A DNA stretch of 64,000 nucleotides. Origin: an uncultured Alphaproteobacteria bacterium. Lineage in GTDB: Bacteria > Pseudomonadota > Alphaproteobacteria > ATCC43930 > CGMCC-115725. The translations under genes were made by a program, and so were the position numbers. Numbering within the stretch: the stretch's first letter is position 1; every line of letters begins with the position of its first letter. The notes beneath the pieces are model-generated. The model worked only from the letters and a program-made list of their open reading frames with translations, had not been told where the DNA came from and did no database searches. Shown here one piece after another: positions 1 through 8,425 of this stretch. The stretch is from the NCBI GenBank assembly GCA_963773665.1, contig CAVZBZ010000004.1, forward strand, positions 275,430 to 339,429, read 5' to 3'.

Positions 1-998
1 CATGACGGGAAGCTCAGGAGAAAGAGCGCCGGCACCGCGAAATTGTTCTTGAAGGCGGCAAACCCGGCTGCGAATTGCGGCAGCTTGTCGACGCCGGCCG
101 CGATCGCCATGAACCCTACGAGCGCCAGAAGCCCGAGCATCAGTGAATAGCCGGGTAGAAGCGCGGCGTTGCGCCGGATCGCATGGCCGCTGTTCGCGCT
201 CAAGATGCCCGTGAGCGAGTGGGGATAGAGGAAGAGCGCGAGCGCCGAGCCCAGGGCGAGCGTCGAATAGACGCCGTAGGAGCCCCAGCCGGTGGCCGGC
301 GGCGCAGCCAGCAGCAGCTTCGCCTGCGGCACCGCGGCGAAGATCTTGCCGTAGCCGCCGAGTTCGACCGGTATGACGATGACCGCGGCGAATGCCGTGA
401 GATAGATCAGCGCATCCTTGACGATCGCGATCGCCGCCGGCGCGCGCAGCCCGCTCGAATAGGTGAATGCGGCGAGAATGACGAAGGCGATGACGAGCGG
501 CAGGTCGCCGACCCAGCCTGCGCCATAGACACCCATGGCGCCGATCACGACCTGCAAACCTACGAGCTGCAAGGCGATGTAGGGCATGGTGGCGACGATG
601 CCGGTGATCGCGACGGCGAGCGCGAGCCAGCGATTGCCATAGCGACCGCGCACGAAGTCGGCCGATGTGATGTAGCCGTGCTTGTGCGCGACGTTCCAGA
701 TGCGCGGAAAGACCAGGAACAGGATCGGATAGATCACGATCGTATAAGGCACGGCGAAGAACGCCACCGCGCCGGCGCCGAAAGCCAGGGCCGGAACTGC
801 GATGAAGGTGTAGGCCGTATAGAGGTCGCCGCCGACCAGGAACCACGTCACGACGGTGCCGAAGCGCCGCCCGCCCAGGCCCCATTCATGCAGTTGGTCG
901 AGATCGCCCTTGCGCCAACGCGCCGCGGCGAAGCCGAGCCAGGTGATGAACCCGAACAGCAATACGAAGACGATGAGCGCCGTCCAATTGACTGCCAC
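1..998 (-). CDS. sodium:solute symporter family transporter (N-terminal part; 3' end runs off the window)
   Basis: Absent from the ORF track because it has no in-window stop. My translation from GTG at 998 (GGAGGG about 7 nt upstream) reads VAVNWTALIVFVLLFGFITWLGF...GGDLYTAYTFIAVPAL... and stays open and hydrophobic down to position 1. It lies directly downstream of a DUF3311-type mini-protein, the usual partner of this symporter subfamily. Confidence 0.8.
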   Translation of the reverse strand, partial: MAVNWTALIVFVLLFGFITWLGFAAARWRKGDLDQLHEWGLGGRRFGTVVTWFLVGGDLYTAYTFIAVPALAFGAGAVAFFAVPYTIVIYPILFLVFPRIWNVAHKHGYITSADFVRGRYGNRWLALAVAITGIVATMPYIALQLVGLQVVIGAMGVYGAGWVGDLPLVIAFVILAAFTYSSGLRAPAAIAIVKDALIYLTAFAAVIVIPVELGGYGKIFAAVPQAKLLLAAPPATGWGSYGVYSTLALGSALALFLYPHSLTGILSANSGHAIRRNAALLPGYSLMLGLLALVGFMAIAAGVDKLPQFAAGFAAFKNNFAVPALFLLSFPS

Positions 999-1020
999 GC
1001 GACCCTCCTGTGCTTATCCC

Positions 1021-1236
1021 TCAGCGGCGACCGGATTCCGTGGCGAAATAGACGATCGCCGTCAGCACCGCGCCAATCAGCACCCAAAGAAGCTGATACC
1101 AATAAAAGAAGGGGATGCCGTGCCAGGAGGGCTCGGCCTTGTTGTAGAAAGGAGGCCACAGCACGACCACGAACTGCACGAGAAAGAGCAGGTACCACCA
1201 GCTCCATTCACGCGGCTTCGGCGTTGGGCTTTTCAT
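1021..1236 (-). CDS. DUF3311-like small membrane protein
   Basis: Internal ATG of ORF 1021..1320 (MKSPTPKPREWSWWYLLFLVQFVVVLWPPFYN...) with GGAGGGGAG upstream. Two hydrophobic helices. Positioned as the first gene of the symporter operon. Confidence 0.7.
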   Translation of the reverse strand: MKSPTPKPREWSWWYLLFLVQFVVVLWPPFYNKAEPSWHGIPFFYWYQLLWVLIGAVLTAIVYFATESGRR

Positions 1237-1575
1237 CCGGCGATCTCCCCTCCAACGCAGTTTATTATACTTGGCATTCAGACGACTTGGCCGCCCTGCC
1301 CGTCTGGCGGCGCATTTCATATATCATAAAATTTCCCAGCTCACAGCCCAGATTGCGCTGTGGTTACGAGCACGATGGTGCTGTCCGAGCGATTAGTTTC
1401 AGTCCGATTGCGCGCCATTCCTTGCGCGCCGCAGACCGCGCGCGTGCGCGAGGCGATGTCGCACGAGATCGACTCCTGCTTCGCGGACGAGGACGCCGAG
1501 CGTGTCATGCGCAAATTGGGCGAGCAACAGGTCCGGCGCCATCCGGCGATGAGCCGCGTGAACCGCGGCGTGTGC

Positions 1576-2007
1576 TTACGACTTGACCGCCGCCTGCTTG
1601 GCCGCCTCGAAGCGGCGCAGCATTTCCGCCGCCGTCTCCTCGTCGATCTCGCGCTCGGCGACGATGATGATCTCGCCCTCCTCTTCTTCGGCGTGCTCCT
1701 GCACCGCCTCCTCGAGCAGGGCGAGAAGATCGGCCTGCTCCTCGTCGTCGGCCTTGACGATTTCCGCCAGTAGCGCGCGCACCCTCCGATGATCGTCCTG
1801 CGCGCCCGTCACCTTGTCCTCCAGCGGCCCGAGCCTTTCGAGCACGGGATAAAACGCCTTTTCCTCGCCCTGCGCGTGTGCCTCGAGCGCATTCATCAGC
1901 TCGGCGATGAGCCGCGCCCGTTCGTCGCTTCGCTCGCAATCCGCGATTTTCTCGAACAGCGTATCGAACGCGTCGTGATCGTCCCTGATGGCTTGCCAGA
2001 TATCCAT
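1576..2007 (-). CDS. hemerythrin-like (HHE cation-binding) domain protein
   Basis: C-terminal 143 aa of ORF 1576..3390, starting MDIWQAIRDDHDAFDTLFEKI.... His/Glu-rich helical pattern. The rest of the 604-aa ORF is antisense to the LLM gene and is spurious. Confidence 0.7.
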   Translation of the reverse strand: MDIWQAIRDDHDAFDTLFEKIADCERSDERARLIAELMNALEAHAQGEEKAFYPVLERLGPLEDKVTGAQDDHRRVRALLAEIVKADDEEQADLLALLEEAVQEHAEEEEGEIIIVAEREIDEETAAEMLRRFEAAKQAAVKS

Positions 2008-4605: not shown

Positions 4606-4715
4606 TCCGGCATTATGCAGTAGCCTCCGGTGATGTTGCGCCGATGCTCGCCGTAGACGTACGATGCCCCCAAAACAACCGGGGGGCGTACCTCCCGCAC
4701 CATTGGGGGGACGAC

Positions 4716-5648
4716 ATGGCTCGGCCAAGGCCGTTTCTGTTTTGCCGATACCGGCTGCTCGTCAACGATGATCCGCTTAACGCACGCGCTCAGCTACAGG
4801 CGCTTACAGAGTTACAGGGTCAATATTTCGCTGCCAGCGCCGCCGCTGAGCGGCAAGGGCGACGCGACAGCGCCATATTCCGCGCGCGTACGCTCGTTGC
4901 TAAAGGCGAGCGCGCGATTACATGGTCCGTCGGGCGCAAGGTCGGCACGCGAATAACGGTCGAACCCAATGATGATGGCTCTGCGTTGCAAATGGGAAAC
5001 GTTCCGGACCGAGGCGTTCATTACTCGGATTTCGTTGCCATTCCTCGGCTTGGGGCGCTGGCCGTAGACGACCGTAGCGGCGAGCCGCATTTAGGCGGCA
5101 AAGCCGCGATCAATCGCTTCCAAGCTGTCTTTGAGCATCTTCCTGGCGCAGCATCGGAGATTTCGCAGACCACGACCAACGCGGAAGTTCAACGAGCGCT
5201 CAGGCGATGGCAGCTGACCGAATTTTCTTTCGTAGTTCGCCCGGCAAATCCTCATCCGCCCAGTGATCTATCGGAAGAATTGAGCGAGGAATATCGCAAG
5301 GATAGGATTGGGCTCGAGCGCGGGATGTTTCGTCCGCGTCCCGGAGAGCAGATGCGTCCCTCCGAGGATGGCCCGATTGCGGCTGTGAGAGAATTGGCTG
5401 ACGACGGGTATGGCCAGTACGCCTTCAAGGGCGTTACGCCGGATGGCCACAGCGCACAGATTAAGGCCCCGAAATTCGACGAAAGCAAAGCCAAGAACCA
5501 AGAGCGGCAGGCGCAACCTCGCGAGCTGCGGATCGTTATTGAAACGGACGTGGATGTAGATGACGCGGTTCTGCGCAATGCGATCACTGCGCTAGGTCCT
5601 GTTTACAAAGTAGCGAGACGTAGGCATCTGCGGATGGTAGCGAGATGA
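4716..5648 (+). CDS. hypothetical soluble protein (island gene A); native 3' end displaced by the IS insertion
   Basis: In-frame ATG at 4716 within track ORF 3357..5648, with a GGGGGGA Shine-Dalgarno sequence. Lower-G+C codon usage than the neighbours, no TM segments, and no family I recognise. The reading frame runs 57 nt into the IS. Deleting the IS restores ...NAITALGQFYG-stop, which overlaps the next start codon. Confidence 0.6.
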   Translation: MARPRPFLFCRYRLLVNDDPLNARAQLQALTELQGQYFAASAAAERQGRRDSAIFRARTLVAKGERAITWSVGRKVGTRITVEPNDDGSALQMGNVPDRGVHYSDFVAIPRLGALAVDDRSGEPHLGGKAAINRFQAVFEHLPGAASEISQTTTNAEVQRALRRWQLTEFSFVVRPANPHPPSDLSEELSEEYRKDRIGLERGMFRPRPGEQMRPSEDGPIAAVRELADDGYGQYAFKGVTPDGHSAQIKAPKFDESKAKNQERQAQPRELRIVIETDVDVDDAVLRNAITALGPVYKVARRRHLRMVAR

Positions 5649-6451
5649 AGGGTATCGAGGAAGGAGCGCGCGAGCTTGTCATATCGGGTGGCGATGGCGC
5701 GGTTCACCTTGAGATGGCCGATCATTCGCTCGATGCGGTTGCGCTCGCGGTAGATGCGTTGGTTCCAGCGGATTGCGTAGATGCGATGGGACCGCGGCGG
5801 GATAACGGCGCGGATGCCGCGTCGGTGGAGCGCAGCGCGGATGGGATCGGTGTCGTAACCCTTGTCGGCGAGCAGATGAGCCGGGCGCGCCGGAGCGCGC
5901 GCGGTCACGGTTTCGAAGGCCGTGCAGTCCGCCGCTTCGCCGCCGGTGAGATGAAAGACGAGCGGGATGCCGTGGGCATCACTGAGACAATGAACTTTAC
6001 AGGTGAACCCGCCCCGCGAGCGGCCAAAAGCCTGTTCGCGAGTCCCCCTTTTGCGCCGGCTGCCGAGACGTGGCCTCGGACCGTCGTCGAGTCGATGCTG
6101 TGGCGGGAGTTGTCCGCCATCGCCCGGGCCAGCCTGGAGGCGACCGCCTCCCAGACGCCGGCCTGGCTCCAGCGTCGAAAGCGTTGGTACACGGTGATCC
6201 ATTTGCCGTACTTCTCGGGAACATCGCGCCACGGCGCGCCCGTGCGCAGGCGCCACAATATGCCGTTCACAATGGTCCGGTTGTCATGCGCAGGCCGGCT
6301 ATTCCGGCCGCGCTCGGCCGGCAACAGGTCTTTCAGCAGCCACCACTCCGCTTCGCTCAAATCGCCTCGACTCAACGACCCCTCCTCTCCAAGAGGAATC
6401 CTTGAATCAGAAGGCGATTCCCGCGTCAATAAGTTTGTAAACAGGACCTAG
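5592..6451 (-). mobile_element. IS5-family insertion sequence (IS427-like organisation, two overlapping transposase frames)
   Basis: Perfect 18-bp terminal inverted repeats: ctaggtcctgtttacaaa at 5592-5609 and tttgtaaacaggacctag at 6434-6451. The outer CTAG (or its TA core) may be the target duplication. The transposase stop codon lies inside the left repeat. Confidence 0.9.
5603..6429 (-). CDS. IS5-family transposase, orfA/orfB joined by a probable programmed -1 frameshift
   Basis: orfA (5905..6429) reads ...LSRGDLSEAEWWLLKDLLPAE...NGILWRLRTGAPWRDVPEKYG. orfB (5603..6256) reads ...GRSRGGFTCKVHCLSDAHG...LLADKGYD...YRERNRIERMIGHLK. The frames overlap at gcAAAAGGGGGAct (plus-strand 6043-6054), an A-run/G-run slip candidate. 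Confidence 0.85.
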
Positions 6452-6460
6452 GGCAATTTT

Positions 6461-7069
6461 ATGGCTGACGAACCGCTCGAACGGCCACGGTTTCTGCCGT
6501 CGTACATAGACGCGGTTGCGCAGAGCGCCCGAAAGCGCGGATGGCGAGCGCTGTGCCCATCATGGCTCGCCGCGTGCGGTGCCGGCGCCGCCGCAACGAC
6601 CTATTTCATGCCATACAACTTTTGGTCAGACGAGCGCCTAGACGTTTCTGTCGTTGTATATATCGGGATTTTGACGCTGAACGGGTTGATTCTGACCCTC
6701 AGCTGGAACGCGTTCTCCCGCATCTATGAAGCCATTAGTTCGCCGCGATTTGCCTCTTATCTGATGGCCAAGAAACTGATGAACCGATATATCGTGTATA
6801 TCGGTTACGTGCATGTTGCGCAGCTGGCCGCGATCATCACAAGTGCTGCAGGGCTTCTGTTGCTACTCTGCTCGATTGAGGAAGTGGCATATAATCGAAC
6901 CGCTTTTGCCGTAATGATCGCGGCATCGGCTTACGCCATCGTTACAGCGGCGAGAGCTGTAGAGGTCGTCCACGATCTCATCTGGCAGAAAGCAATATTT
7001 GACGATTTTATCGCTCGCCAAGAGGGTAAAAACGTCGTGCCCTTTGGCCGCAACAATGACGCGGTATAG
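6461..7069 (+). CDS. hypothetical integral membrane protein (island gene B), 3-4 TM helices
   Basis: 202 aa. Hydrophobic stretches are VSVVVYIGILTLNGLILTLSWNAF, YIVYIGYVHVAQLAAIITSAAGLLLLLC and AFAVMIAASAYAIVTAARAV. A/T-rich codons. The ATG overlapped the ancestral stop of gene A (ATGGCTGA). Confidence 0.65.
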   Translation: MADEPLERPRFLPSYIDAVAQSARKRGWRALCPSWLAACGAGAAATTYFMPYNFWSDERLDVSVVVYIGILTLNGLILTLSWNAFSRIYEAISSPRFASYLMAKKLMNRYIVYIGYVHVAQLAAIITSAAGLLLLLCSIEEVAYNRTAFAVMIAASAYAIVTAARAVEVVHDLIWQKAIFDDFIARQEGKNVVPFGRNNDAV

Positions 7070-7419
7070 AGCGTCCCTATAAATCTTCGAGCCTCACGCC
7101 CTCCAGTTCCAGCGCCGCAATGCAGGCCAGGAAGAACGTTGCCGCGTGGAGAAAACTGTCACGAAGCGCATCAGCGCGTGCTTGCGGCACCGCGGCACCA
7201 TCGGAACAAGGGGTTACTGCGGTCGCGCGGCGGCATCGGCAACCGCATTGTCTGGGGCGTTGTTCCCAAGAGCGAATCGCGCGCGAGATTCGCACGAAAT
7301 TCGCGCATGCCCAGCATCGTGCCCGCGCAAGCCATTGATCCCGTTAACGATTCGCAGCCATGTTGCGGTGCGCCCGCGCGTGTCTATATGTCTTTGCCCC
7401 TCATCGTGGCGAGGGATGC

Positions 7420-8061
7420 ATGGACGCGACCTACAATCTCAATGGCGGCTTCAAGCCAACGACAAAGCGATCGGCCGATCTTGATGGCCCAGATTTCTTC
7501 CCGACGCCGAGATGGGCAACGCACGCACTGATTGACAACGAGCCATTTCGCGGCGGCATCTGGGAGTGTGCTTGTGGCGATGGCTCTATGTCCGAAGTTC
7601 TCGCCGAAACCGGAAATCCTGTCGAAAGTTCCGATCTATTCGACCGAGGCTATGGCGAGATCGGCATAGATTTCCTGCACACAACGCGCCGTGCGAAGAA
7701 CATCATCACGAACCCACCCTACAACAGCGCCGAGGGCTTCGTCTCGACAGCGCTGAAGCAGGCAGAGAACAAGTTTGCGCTGTTGCTGAGGCTTGCATTT
7801 CTTGAAGGCGCGAACCGGGCGAAGACGATCTTCCATGTCACGCCGCCCAGCCGTGTATGGGTGTTCAGCGAGCGCATCACCTTCTACATGAAGAATGCCA
7901 AGATCGCTGGCAGCGGGACAACCGCCTACGCGTGGTTTGTCTGGGACAAGCATCATACAGGACCAACCGAATTGGCGTGGTTCAAACCGGGATATAAGGC
8001 CCGATACAGCGGCACAACTACTTCTTCAGTGACTCGACAAGGCGCTTTCCTGCCGCCGTGA
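7420..8061 (+). CDS. orphan DNA N6-adenine methyltransferase, gamma-class motif order, very short target-recognition region
   Basis: Motif order is FFPTP (motif X), then ECACGDG (motif I, SAM pocket), then NPPY (motif IV). ATG at 7420 with GAGGGA upstream. About 213 aa. No restriction endonuclease gene is adjacent. Confidence 0.7.
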   Translation: MDATYNLNGGFKPTTKRSADLDGPDFFPTPRWATHALIDNEPFRGGIWECACGDGSMSEVLAETGNPVESSDLFDRGYGEIGIDFLHTTRRAKNIITNPPYNSAEGFVSTALKQAENKFALLLRLAFLEGANRAKTIFHVTPPSRVWVFSERITFYMKNAKIAGSGTTAYAWFVWDKHHTGPTELAWFKPGYKARYSGTTTSSVTRQGAFLPP

Positions 8062-8314
8062 TCTTGAACCCGCGATAGATTTCGACGGCTAATCCGGCTT
8101 TCACGAGCGTTTTGTGGCTCTTGAGATTGCGGACCTTCTGCGAAAATTTCGTATCGGATCGCTGCTCCAATATCTCGGCATCTTCGCCTTCTGGCTTAAA
8201 TTGCGAACTAAGCGCCTCAATGATTTCCGTCGTCTTCATCTCGCCGTCAGGGGCGTTATAAAGAAGCTCCAAAGTCGGGATCACCAGTTCAGGCTCAGGA
8301 ATGCGCTTGGGCAT
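8018..8314 (-). CDS. stand-alone winged-helix protein resembling the N-terminal DNA-reader domain of Mrr-type restriction enzymes
   Basis: MPKRIPEPELVIPTLELLYNAPDGEMKTTEIIEALSSQFKPEGEDAEILEQRSDTKFSQKVRNLKSHKTLVKAGL... matches my recollection of the Mrr_N pattern. GGAGG lies about 9 nt upstream of ATG 8314. The 3' end overlaps the methyltransferase 3' end by 44 nt. Confidence 0.55.
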   Translation of the reverse strand: MPKRIPEPELVIPTLELLYNAPDGEMKTTEIIEALSSQFKPEGEDAEILEQRSDTKFSQKVRNLKSHKTLVKAGLAVEIYRGFKITAAGKRLVESLKK

Positions 8315-8425
8315 ATGCTTCATCCTCCACCCCACCGGGCGGCGCGACTCATGCCTCAGGCAGTCCCCTCAAGTCAAACCGGAGACTGCTATCTAATGCC
8401 AGAATAATCGGCCAGCGCAGCCCGC

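What the first reader, a model, noticed from the sequence alone, without database searches (positions are those of the whole stretch)
7420..8314. Orphan minimal gamma-class m6A methyltransferase converging on, and overlapping, a stand-alone Mrr_N-like winged-helix gene
The methyltransferase has FFPTP, then ECACGDG, then NPPY, but only about 213 aa in total. This leaves very little room for a target-recognition domain, and there is no cognate endonuclease.

The opposite-strand 98-aa protein looks like the DNA-reader domain that normally sits at the N-terminus of Mrr-type modification-dependent nucleases, here without any nuclease domain. The two 3' ends overlap by 44 nt (8018-8061), so their transcripts would be mutually antisense. 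A writer of m6A paired with a detached reader of modified DNA is an unusual pairing. It could be a regulatory or epigenetic module, or the accessory half of the neighbouring A/B system.
Basis: partly seen in the sequence, partly recalled or inferred. Interest (0 to 1): 0.6.

Follow-up and report, generated by a model that had tools for sequence, protein, structure and literature searches.

The report
Mobile GANTC methylase with winged-helix partner
A very small phage-type DNA adenine methylase, probably writing the same GANTC mark as the cell-cycle methylase CcrM, sits tail-to-tail with a 98-residue winged-helix DNA-binding protein; the pair is a conserved, mobile, nuclease-free cassette in many Alphaproteobacteria and their phages and probably regulates itself through DNA methylation.

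Summary
A 213-aa NPPY methyltransferase (7420-8061, +) and a 98-aa winged-helix gene (8018-8314, -) converge and overlap by 44 nt.

The pairing is not chance. About 73 of 80 genome loci with an MTase of 64-84% identity carry the same convergent partner. So do 16 of 18 such viral contigs. None of about 80 more distant, unpaired homologs does.

The MTase is not an enigmatic enzyme without specificity. It is 38% identical to PhiLM21_p027, a small phage enzyme shown experimentally to methylate GANTC.

In the paired clade, GANTC sites cluster in the MTase promoter at 21 per kb, against 1.9 per kb in the background.

The partner is Mrr_N-like, below Pfam's threshold. It is closer (58% identity, identical recognition helix) to the N-terminal domain of HNH restriction endonucleases that sit in operons with m6A methylases.

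The 44-nt overlap is one value in a range (the mode is 4 nt), and the MTase tail is not conserved.

Linkage to the neighbouring DUF4747/4-TM pair is local, seen in 3 of 84 loci.

Best reading: a self-regulating writer plus methylation-sensitive DNA binder.

This scan found the same cassette earlier in three other genomes.

The parts
4612..8423 (.). Low-G+C inserted islet that carries the cassette. It also holds an IS5-split DUF4747/4-TM pair at 4716-7069, which is context and not part of the cassette.
   Evidence: G+C is 0.54-0.60 here against 0.64-0.70 in the flanks. In four congeneric genomes the MFS and cupin genes are directly adjacent. Homology to these empty sites ends at about 4611 and resumes at about 8424.
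7272..7293 (.). Palindrome GCGAATCGCGC/GCGAGATTCGC holding two GANTC sites (7274-7278 and 7287-7291), 130-145 nt upstream of the MTase start. Candidate methylation-sensitive operator.
   Evidence: Inverted repeat I18. Family-wide, GANTC is enriched 11-fold in MTase promoters.
7349..7353 (.). Third GANTC (GATTC) in the motif CGATTCGCAGCC, about 70 nt upstream of the MTase start. The nearest relatives share this element as GATTCACAG(C).
   Evidence: The same element is seen in L001, L004, L058, L061 and L072.
7420..8061 (+). Small gamma-type N6-adenine DNA methyltransferase, 213 aa. The conserved core is residues 1-197 (7420-8010). Residues 198-213 are a non-conserved read-through tail.
   Evidence: phrog_799 E 8e-63. 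38% identity, E 1e-32, to the GANTC-specific PhiLM21_p027. Rossmann-fold model whose top PDB hits include M.TaqI, TrmN and METTL5. More than 7,840 homologs, the best 120 at 73-86% identity. Tail alignment.
8018..8061 (.). 44-nt overlap of the two 3' ends. It contains one GANTC (GACTC, 8031-8035).
   Evidence: Overlap or abutment is the family rule, but its length varies.
8018..8314 (-). 98-aa stand-alone winged-helix protein, Mrr_N-like. Recognition helix KFSQKVRNLKSH at residues 56-67.
   Evidence: Pfam Mrr_N 26.7 bits, E 6e-6, below the 29.5 threshold. AlphaFold2 pLDDT 92, with a winged-helix topology. Invariant residues Q59, R62, N63 and H67. 58% identity to the N-domain of wHTH-HNH endonucleases. 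36% identity to the N-domain of a genuine Mrr.
8336..8423 (-). Promoter region of the wHTH gene. TTGACT, then a 17-nt spacer, then GCATGAGTC, with a GANTC (8346-8350) over the putative -10 element.
   Evidence: L006, L001, L072 and L058 share TTGACTC ... GA(G/A)TCAT. No strict sigma-70 consensus was found.

Best explanation
This is one copy of a widespread, horizontally mobile two-gene cassette.

Gene 1 is a single-domain, phage-derived N6-adenine DNA methyltransferase. It most likely methylates GANTC, the site of the host cell-cycle methylase CcrM.

Gene 2 is a small winged-helix DNA-binding protein. It is homologous to the target-recognition domain of Mrr-type and, more closely, wHTH-HNH restriction endonucleases, but it has no nuclease domain.

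Proposed mechanism (inferred):
- The winged helix binds GANTC-containing operators in the MTase promoter, and in this sub-lineage in its own promoter.
- Binding depends on the methylation state that the MTase (and CcrM) writes. This closes a feedback loop that sets MTase output.
- Because the genes abut tail-to-tail with no terminator between them, convergent transcription adds mutual interference.
- The R-M relatives slightly favour binding to unmethylated or hemimethylated sites that methylation blocks, over binding to methylated sites.

Shown here: conservation of the pair, homology to enzymes proven GANTC-specific, GANTC clustering restricted to the paired clade, and the partner's fold and relatives.

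Inferred: GANTC specificity of this particular enzyme, which protein reads the GANTC clusters, and the sign of regulation.
For: Pairing:
- About 73 of 80 genome loci and 79 of 84 by clustering.
- 16 of 18 viral contigs with a paired-clade MTase, against 0 of 59 with distant MTases.
- 7 of 7 against 0 of about 25 in a 400-genome class sample.
- Partner types cluster on the MTase tree: 18 changes against 48.7 when shuffled.

Specificity:
- 38% identity, E 1e-32, to PhiLM21_p027.
- That enzyme and the 179-aa Paracoccus prophage enzymes protect GANTC from HinfI (PMC5537653, PMC3925955).

Promoter:
- 180 GANTC sites in 8.6 kb of MTase-proximal upstream sequence (20.9 per kb) against 1.85 per kb in the background.
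- GAATC and GACTC are the first and third most widespread 5-mers.
- Recurrent architecture: GANTC-N4-GANTC-ACTTAG, then TTGACTAAC, then GATTC-TGCTAtatt, then ATG.
- Unpaired homologs have 1.7 per kb and 0.8 per kb.
- Window sites lie at 7274, 7287, 7349 and 8346.

Partner:
- The recognition helix [FW]xQx[VI][RG]NxxSH is invariant across all partner types.
- In 9 loci it is fused to an Xre HTH, with palindromic operators upstream. In L100 and L105 the same palindrome also precedes the MTase.
- The nearest fused relatives are wHTH-HNH endonucleases lying directly downstream of D12 m6A MTases in 68-73 of 80 loci. This wHTH subfamily is therefore repeatedly coupled to adenine methylation.
- E. coli Mrr is elicited by GANTC methylation from M.HhaII (PMC3973329).
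Against: - No experiment bears on this protein.
- GANTC specificity is extrapolated from homologs at 38% identity.
- 15 of 86 loci have no GANTC within 100 nt of the MTase start yet keep the same recognition helix.
- A test for shared exact sequence between the two promoters of a locus was only marginal.
- wHTH promoters are only 3-4-fold enriched for GANTC, and some carry a different palindrome, TGTCC-N6-GGACA.
- GANTC clusters could instead be read by host GcrA or CcrM, or by the MTase itself.
- No consensus sigma-70 promoter is detectable in the window copy.
- The window copy has only three GANTC sites upstream, set further from the start codon than in most loci.
Confidence: 0.55

Rival explanations
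1. Ordinary controller. The winged helix is a plain transcription factor, analogous to a C protein, that sets the timing or level of the MTase. Its DNA binding is indifferent to methylation. The GANTC clusters are read by host factors (CcrM/GcrA cell-cycle control) or by the MTase itself.
For: - Xre-HTH fusions with classic palindromic operators.
- TGTCC-N6-GGACA palindromes upstream of some partners.
- CtrA-box-like TTAA-N7-TTAA in a few MTase promoters.
- The host has a CcrM homolog.
- 15 of 86 loci lack GANTC clusters but keep the helix.
Against: - GANTC clusters occur only where the wHTH partner occurs.
- The wHTH subfamily is tied to m6A MTases in two unrelated MTase families.
- The recognition helix is invariant while the operators proposed for other domains vary.
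Confidence: 0.2
2. Nuclease-free self/non-self module. The wHTH is a sensor of unmethylated GANTC on incoming DNA, descended from or parallel to a restriction-enzyme recognition domain, and the MTase marks self. The output is occlusion of foreign DNA. In variant loci the output is release of a toxin (colicin-E3-like RNase with a DUF7683-wHTH immunity fusion) or cleavage (HNH fusion).
For: - wHTH-HNH proteins in R-M operons share 58% identity and an identical helix with the window protein.
- Seven loci have a Pfam Cytotoxic toxin plus a DUF7683-wHTH fusion, and ten have another small gene plus an N-domain-wHTH fusion.
- The window, L004 and L006 place the cassette beside a Rex-like DUF4747/4-TM pair.
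- Phages of these hosts carry GANTC MTases of the same family (PMC5537653).
Against: - No PADLOC match.
- The stand-alone form has no effector.
- Host DNA is hemimethylated at GANTC for part of each cycle in CcrM-type organisms, so self would also be bound.
- The cassette also sits inside phage genomes.
- Linkage to defence genes is rare, 3 of 84 loci.
Confidence: 0.15
3. Anti-restriction decoy. The stand-alone Mrr_N-like domain competes with resident Mrr-type Type IV enzymes for methylated sites. This would protect DNA that the MTase has modified.
For: - Homology to the Mrr N-domain.
- E. coli Mrr attacks GANTC-methylated DNA (PMC3973329).
- The cassette is mobile and found in phages.
Against: - All Alphaproteobacteria with CcrM already carry methylated GANTC, so a Mrr directed at that mark cannot be resident.
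- The recognition helix differs from genuine Mrr_N.
- The idea does not explain the GANTC-rich promoters or the Xre and antitoxin fusions.
Confidence: 0.05
4. Accessory half of the neighbouring DUF4747/4-TM (Rex-like) system, or chance juxtaposition of two unrelated genes.
For: Co-location in the window, L004 and L006.
Against: - 81 of 84 cassette loci lack the DUF4747 pair.
- Its orientation relative to the cassette differs between the window and L004.
- The pairing statistics exclude chance.
Confidence: 0.03

Closest known systems
Small phage/prophage m6A methyltransferases with 'CcrM-like specificity' (PhiLM21_p027 of Sinorhizobium phage PhiLM21; JCM7686_1231/2255/2934 of Paracoccus aminophilus prophages; phrog_799)
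   Same: - Single Rossmann domain of 179-218 aa, with an N-terminal FxTP motif, then a GxG motif, then NPP(Y/F/W).
- 38% identity over 189 residues.
- Orphan enzymes of alphaproteobacterial hosts.
- Experimentally GANTC-specific (PMC5537653, PMC3925955).
   Different: - Those genes sit inside phage replication modules as operon members. They have no winged-helix partner and no GANTC-rich promoter.
- The window enzyme belongs to a distinct, tightly conserved clade (at least 64% identity) with its own N-terminal motif, MDATYNLNGGFKP. This clade is always paired.
Type II R-M operons made of a D12-class m6A methyltransferase followed by a wHTH-HNH endonuclease (metagenomic loci L231-L310; not named in the literature searched)
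   Same: - The partner's winged helix is 58% identical to the endonuclease N-domain, with an identical KFSQKVRNLKSH helix.
- Both arrangements put this wHTH next to an adenine methylase.
   Different: - There is no HNH or other nuclease domain here.
- The MTase belongs to an unrelated family.
- The genes are convergent, not co-directional and translationally coupled.
- Those operons show no GANTC enrichment in their promoters.
Mrr (E. coli Type IV restriction enzyme) and its N-terminal domain, Pfam Mrr_N PF14338
   Same: - Winged-helix fold with a long H2-H3 loop.
- 36% identity to the N-domain of genuine Mrr_N+Mrr_cat proteins.
- Mrr responds to GANTC m6A written by M.HhaII (PMC3973329).
   Different: - Scores below the Pfam gathering threshold.
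- Different recognition helix.
- No Mrr_cat domain.
- Encoded beside an MTase, which would be suicidal for a true Type IV enzyme.
CcrM with GcrA, and the methylation-sensitive ccrM/ctrA promoters of Caulobacter (from established knowledge; Gonzalez et al. 2014 and Haakonsen et al. 2015 appear)
   Same: - A GANTC writer whose own promoter carries GANTC sites.
- A separate protein whose promoter activity depends on GANTC methylation.
   Different: - CcrM is a beta-class enzyme and GcrA is not a winged helix. Neither is homologous to the cassette proteins.
- Those genes are core, unlinked and vertically inherited. The cassette is mobile and compact.
Controller (C) proteins of R-M systems
   Same: - A small DNA-binding protein encoded with an MTase.
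- In 9 loci the partner carries an Xre-type HTH with paired palindromic operators.
   Different: - C proteins are Xre HTH dimers placed upstream of and co-oriented with the R gene.
- Here the constant domain is a winged helix, there is no R gene, and the genes converge.

Membership tests
Small phage-type GANTC-specific m6A MTases (PhiLM21_p027-like, phrog_799) | Significant sequence homology to characterised members | tested here: met
   BLASTP 38% identity, E 1e-32, to PhiLM21_p027. phrog_799 E 8e-63.
Small phage-type GANTC-specific m6A MTases (PhiLM21_p027-like, phrog_799) | Single-domain enzyme of about 180-220 aa with a SAM-binding motif and NPP(Y/F/W) | tested here: met
   213 aa with a 197-aa conserved core. 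ECACGDG at 49-55 and NPPY at 98-101. The Rossmann model resembles the M.TaqI catalytic domain.
Small phage-type GANTC-specific m6A MTases (PhiLM21_p027-like, phrog_799) | Methylates the adenine of GANTC | not testable with these tools
   Indirect support only: 11-fold GANTC enrichment in the promoters of this clade. The assay needed is HinfI protection or SMRT sequencing.
Small phage-type GANTC-specific m6A MTases (PhiLM21_p027-like, phrog_799) | Located in a phage replication module | tested here: not met
   The window copy lies in a chromosomal islet between the MFS and cupin genes. Its clade has its own promoter and a wHTH partner.
Mrr_N (Pfam PF14338) | Score at or above the Pfam gathering threshold | tested here: not met
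   26.7 bits against a cut-off of 29.5, E 6e-6. Many homologs carry a precomputed PF14338 hit.
Mrr_N (Pfam PF14338) | Winged-helix fold | tested here: met
   AlphaFold2 pLDDT 92, topology H-b-H-loop-H-b-b-H. Foldseek returns forkhead, MarR and PadR winged helices, probability about 1 but E above 0.01.
Mrr_N (Pfam PF14338) | N-terminal to a Mrr_cat (PD-(D/E)XK) nuclease domain | tested here: not met
   The protein is a 98-aa stand-alone. Genuine Mrr_N+Mrr_cat proteins align at only 36% identity.
Type II restriction-modification system | A cognate endonuclease encoded with the MTase | tested here: not met
   No nuclease domain in the partner and none in the island. Relatives of the partner fused to HNH exist elsewhere.
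C-protein-controlled MTase module | Xre-type HTH controller with a C-box palindrome upstream of its own gene | tested here: not met
   The window partner has no Xre domain and no such palindrome. The feature is met only in 9 variant loci.
Known anti-phage defence systems (PADLOC-DB 2.0) | Match to a defence-system protein model | tested here: not met
   No hit for either protein at E up to 1.

The most novel reading that the evidence does not exclude
The cassette may be a nuclease-free restriction-modification analogue. The winged helix would be a portable sensor of unmethylated GANTC that evolution has plugged into different outputs:
- an HNH nuclease in R-M operons;
- a colicin-E3-like RNase, held by an immunity-wHTH fusion;
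- an Xre regulator;
- nothing at all, as in this window.

The small MTase would supply the self mark. The stand-alone form would then restrict or silence incoming unmethylated DNA by occupancy alone. Alternatively it would act as a heritable bistable epigenetic switch layered on the CcrM cell-cycle mark.
Probability: 0.15. Interest if true: 0.85.

Novelty: new variant of a known kind. Interest (0 to 1): 0.6.

Why it matters
GANTC methylation by CcrM is the central epigenetic clock of the alphaproteobacterial cell cycle. This cassette would be a second, mobile GANTC writer that travels with its own dedicated DNA-binding partner. It is present in hundreds of genomes and in phages, and it is unannotated: sources call the proteins 'hypothetical' and Pfam has no domain for the MTase.

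If the winged helix reads the mark, it would be a new class of m6A-sensitive regulator alongside GcrA, SeqA and OxyR/Lrp-type switches.

The cassette would also give a compact two-gene system for testing how methylation state is sensed. The close kinship between the partner and the recognition domain of wHTH-HNH restriction enzymes suggests a route by which R-M parts are recycled into regulators or non-nucleolytic defence.

For annotation, the practical result is that the MTase should be named a putative GANTC-specific adenine methyltransferase, and the partner an MTase-associated winged-helix protein.

Tried and rejected
- **Pfam and NCBIfam on the MTase.** Only a sub-threshold Dam (PF05869) hit and noise.
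- **PDB sequence searches.** Nothing useful for either protein.
- **PADLOC.** No hits.
- **Terminal inverted repeats** that would make the cassette a transposon. None convincing in the window. In L074 and L100 the flanking inverted repeats look like shared promoter or operator elements rather than IS ends. An IS1595 transposase lies beside the cassette in 14 of 84 loci, but on either side and in either orientation, so a passenger-gene model was not supported.
- **Shared exact sequence between the two promoters of each locus.** Only marginally above permuted pairs.
- **Correlation between GANTC count and recognition-helix sequence.** None found.
- **GANTC enrichment upstream of the D12 MTases in wHTH-HNH operons.** None: 1.1 per kb against 2.0 per kb. 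The target of those R-M systems stays unknown.
- **The unknown N-domain and upstream small protein of variant (c).** No Pfam, NCBIfam or PDB match.
- **Consensus promoter and terminator scan.** No sigma-70 match and no terminator between the genes.
- **wHTH as the MTase's missing target-recognition subunit.** Rejected. Homologous small MTases are GANTC-specific on their own in E. coli (PMC5537653), and the recognition helix is invariant rather than variable.
- **Literature searches.** No description of the pairing was found.
- **Tools and papers not available.** The primary PhiLM21 paper (PMC4249059) is not held, so its result is cited through the same authors' 2017 paper.
Full report
**Observation.**
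- The MTase runs 7420-8061 on the + strand and is 213 aa. It has DFFPTP (residues 25-30), ECACGDG (49-55) and NPPY (98-101).
- The partner runs 8018-8314 on the - strand and is 98 aa. Its ATG has GGAGGA 9 nt upstream, and homologs begin at the same residue.
- The frames share 8018-8061, 44 nt.
- Both genes are single-copy in the 5.3-Mb assembly.

**The methyltransferase.**
- Pfam gives only a sub-threshold Dam hit. PHROGs places the protein firmly in phrog_799, 'DNA methyltransferase', E 8e-63.
- The protein collection holds more than 7,840 relatives. The best 120 are 73-86% identical and 197-285 aa long (most 197-218), nearly all unnamed.
- Phage records contain 590 more distant copies, all below 60% identity. 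These include Rhizobium phage 16-3 p096 and Sinorhizobium phage PhiLM21 p027.
- p027 is 38% identical, E 1e-32. Its authors report it as a GANTC-specific m6A enzyme, unrelated in sequence to CcrM but with the same specificity. Three 179-aa Paracoccus prophage enzymes behave the same way (PMC5537653 and PMC3925955).
- The AlphaFold2 model is a bare Rossmann core. Its N-terminal 26 residues and C-terminal 15 residues are disordered. The best structural matches include the M.TaqI catalytic domain and the TrmN, TrmM and METTL5 amino-methyltransferases.
- The enzyme is therefore minimal but belongs to a family with proven sequence specificity. The host also has a CcrM homolog.

**The partner.**
- Pfam Mrr_N scores 26.7 bits, E 6e-6, under the 29.5-bit threshold.
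- The model (pLDDT 92) is a winged helix with a long loop before the recognition helix. Foldseek returns generic winged helices only.
- In 73 homologs the invariant residues are E7, P41, D45, L49, D54, Q59, R62, N63 and H67. Four of these (Q59, R62, N63, H67) lie in or at the end of the recognition helix KFSQKVRNLKSH, and four lie in the loop before it.
- Genuine Mrr proteins (Mrr_N plus Mrr_cat) align at 36% identity with a different helix.

**The pair is a conserved unit.**
- In 80 genome loci with an MTase of 64-84% identity, a profile of the partner finds a convergent copy in about 73. The hosts include Acetobacteraceae, Rhizobiaceae, Sphingomonadaceae, Paracoccaceae and Azospirillaceae.
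- BLAST clustering finds it in 79 of 84 loci.
- In an even sample of 400 genomes of the class, 7 others have an MTase at least 73% identical, and all 7 have the partner. One was seen only by eye (L014). None of about 25 genomes with a more distant MTase has it.
- Viral contigs replicate this. 16 of 18 contigs with MTases scoring at least 330 bits have the partner. 0 of 59 with lower-scoring MTases do.
- Partner types cluster on the MTase tree, 18 changes against 48.7 for shuffled labels, so the two genes travel together. Kin share labels, so this shows co-inheritance and not co-evolution.

**The overlap.**
- The conserved MTase core ends at ...KPGYKARYS, residue 197. What follows varies in length (0-20 residues) and in sequence.
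- Among 81 non-redundant loci, 67 overlap at the 3' ends. The mode is 4 nt (21 loci), and 44 nt occurs in 3.
- Ten loci leave 0-15 nt, and three have an inserted gene.
- No terminator lies between the genes.
- Tail-to-tail abutment, and hence convergent read-through, is the conserved feature. The 44 nt is not.

**GANTC-rich promoters.**
- The 100 nt before the MTase start carry 180 GANTC sites in 86 loci, or 20.9 per kb. The background over 837 kb of the same loci is 1.85 per kb.
- GAATC and GACTC are the first and third most widespread 5-mers.
- Many loci share an ordered layout: GANTC-N4-GANTC-ACTTAG (in either orientation, or as a perfect palindrome GGTGAGTCAAAATGACTCACC), then TTGACTAAC, then GATTC-TGCTAtatt, a few bases before the ATG.
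- Distant, unpaired homologs have 1.7 per kb and 0.8 per kb. These are mostly operon-internal genes, so the contrast is partly 'own promoter against none'.
- In the window the sites are 7274 and 7287 (within the palindrome GCGAATCGCGC/GCGAGATTCGC), 7349, 8031 and 8346. The last lies over the putative -10 of the partner's promoter.
- Partner promoters are enriched only 3-4-fold, and some carry another palindrome.

**What the partner's relatives say.** Within the cassette family the winged helix takes several forms.
- Stand-alone, as in the window.
- Fused behind an Xre HTH (9 loci). These have TCAACG-N5-CGTTGA operators upstream, and in L100 and L105 the same palindrome also precedes the MTase.
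- Fused behind DUF7683 and preceded by a Pfam 'Cytotoxic' (colicin E3 RNase) gene (7 loci).
- Fused behind an unknown 120-aa domain and preceded by a conserved 100-aa gene (10 loci).

A profile search of 1.84 billion representatives found 835 relatives. Of the best 150, 49 are stand-alone, 36 are wHTH-HNH proteins of about 250 aa, and 17 are long proteins; the four of these checked carry alpha-CTD and sigma-4 domains.

The wHTH-HNH proteins are 58% identical to the window protein, with an identical helix. In 68-73 of 80 metagenome loci they lie immediately downstream of, and often overlap, a D12-class m6A MTase. That MTase is sometimes fused to a second MTase domain. These are restriction-modification operons. 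There, the wHTH must direct a nuclease to DNA that the partner methylase has not modified. This subfamily of winged helices is thus coupled to adenine methylation with two unrelated MTase families.

Separately, E. coli Mrr is elicited by GANTC methylation from M.HhaII (PMC3973329).

**Context in the window.**
- The cassette occupies the right end of a 3.8-kb low-G+C islet.
- Four congeners have the MFS and cupin genes directly adjacent. Homology ends at about 4611 and resumes at about 8424.
- The islet also holds a DUF4747/4-TM pair split by an IS5 element.
- That pair accompanies the cassette only in the window, L004 and L006, and in L004 in the opposite relative orientation.

**Mechanism.** The best-supported reading is a self-regulating writer plus methylation-sensitive binder.
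- The MTase writes GANTC.
- The winged helix binds GANTC-containing operators according to their methylation state and sets MTase output.
- Convergent transcription adds interference.
- The R-M relatives favour binding that methylation blocks. The Mrr precedent favours the opposite. I put this at roughly 60:40.

Rivals are a methylation-blind controller, a nuclease-free self/non-self module, an anti-Mrr decoy, and an accessory of the A/B pair. The last is effectively excluded.

**Novelty.**
- The MTase family is known.
- Literature searches found no description of its obligate pairing with this winged helix, of the GANTC-cluster promoter, or of the link to wHTH-HNH enzymes.
- This scan had already met the cassette in three other genomes and read it the same way. 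I saw those notes after reaching the GANTC reading.
- Possibly new here are the R-M kinship, the toxin-immunity fusions, the overlap statistics and the paired/unpaired contrast in two data sets; I saw only summaries of the earlier follow-up reports.

**Limits.**
- GANTC specificity is extrapolated from homologs at 38% identity.
- Which protein reads the GANTC clusters is inferred.

Noticed in passing
L231-L310 (metagenome contigs), e.g. L265:2783-4768: A widespread two-gene R-M operon. A roughly 390-410-aa D12-class m6A MTase (sometimes an N6_N4+D12 fusion of about 680 aa) is followed by a roughly 250-aa endonuclease made of this wHTH plus a McrA-like HNH domain. The two genes often overlap. 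The recognition sequence is unknown.
   Followed up: partly
L078, L085, L093, L094, L097, L098, L104 (e.g. L094:6647-7590): Cassette variant in which the partner is a DUF7683-wHTH fusion preceded by a roughly 90-aa Pfam 'Cytotoxic' (colicin E3 RNase domain) gene. It looks like a toxin/immunity pair whose immunity protein carries the winged helix. The MTase promoters in these loci lack GANTC clusters.
   Followed up: partly
L057, L070, L075, L079, L083, L086, L090, L106, L111, L112: Another variant. An unknown 120-aa N-domain is fused to the wHTH, and a conserved roughly 100-aa protein (...SGEVWG...GIDFTT...EDFACI...) is encoded just upstream. Neither has a Pfam, NCBIfam or PDB match.
   Followed up: partly
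14 of 84 cassette loci (e.g. L001:9484-10422, L074:4950-5927): An IS1595-family transposase lies directly beside the cassette, on either side and in either orientation. This is more often than any other neighbour, and no enclosing inverted repeats were found.
   Followed up: partly
window 1-64000: GANTC is under-represented about two-fold in the window. There are 81 sites, against 319.5 in dinucleotide shuffles; that figure appears to count both strands of this palindromic pattern, i.e. about 160 sites.
   Followed up: no
L040 (G083:C3:1-1819), ORF 65-1291 (-): A 409-aa protein with a Bro-N domain followed by this wHTH subfamily (44% identity to the window protein). It looks like a phage antirepressor-type fusion.
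   Followed up: no
L050, L080, L092, L101, L120, upstream of the partner gene: A conserved palindrome TGTCC-N6-GGACA plus a further TTAGGACA half-site about 20 nt downstream. It is a candidate autoregulatory operator in one partner sub-lineage.
   Followed up: no
L042 (G164:C42), 1468-1851 (+): An orphan copy of the wHTH between kdsA- and eno-like genes, with no MTase nearby. It may be a remnant of a cassette.
   Followed up: no
L001-L003 (e.g. L003:8327-8779): A 150-aa gene (weak Pfam 8xMP hit) is inserted between the wHTH and the MTase. It is one of three loci where the tail-to-tail abutment is broken.
   Followed up: no
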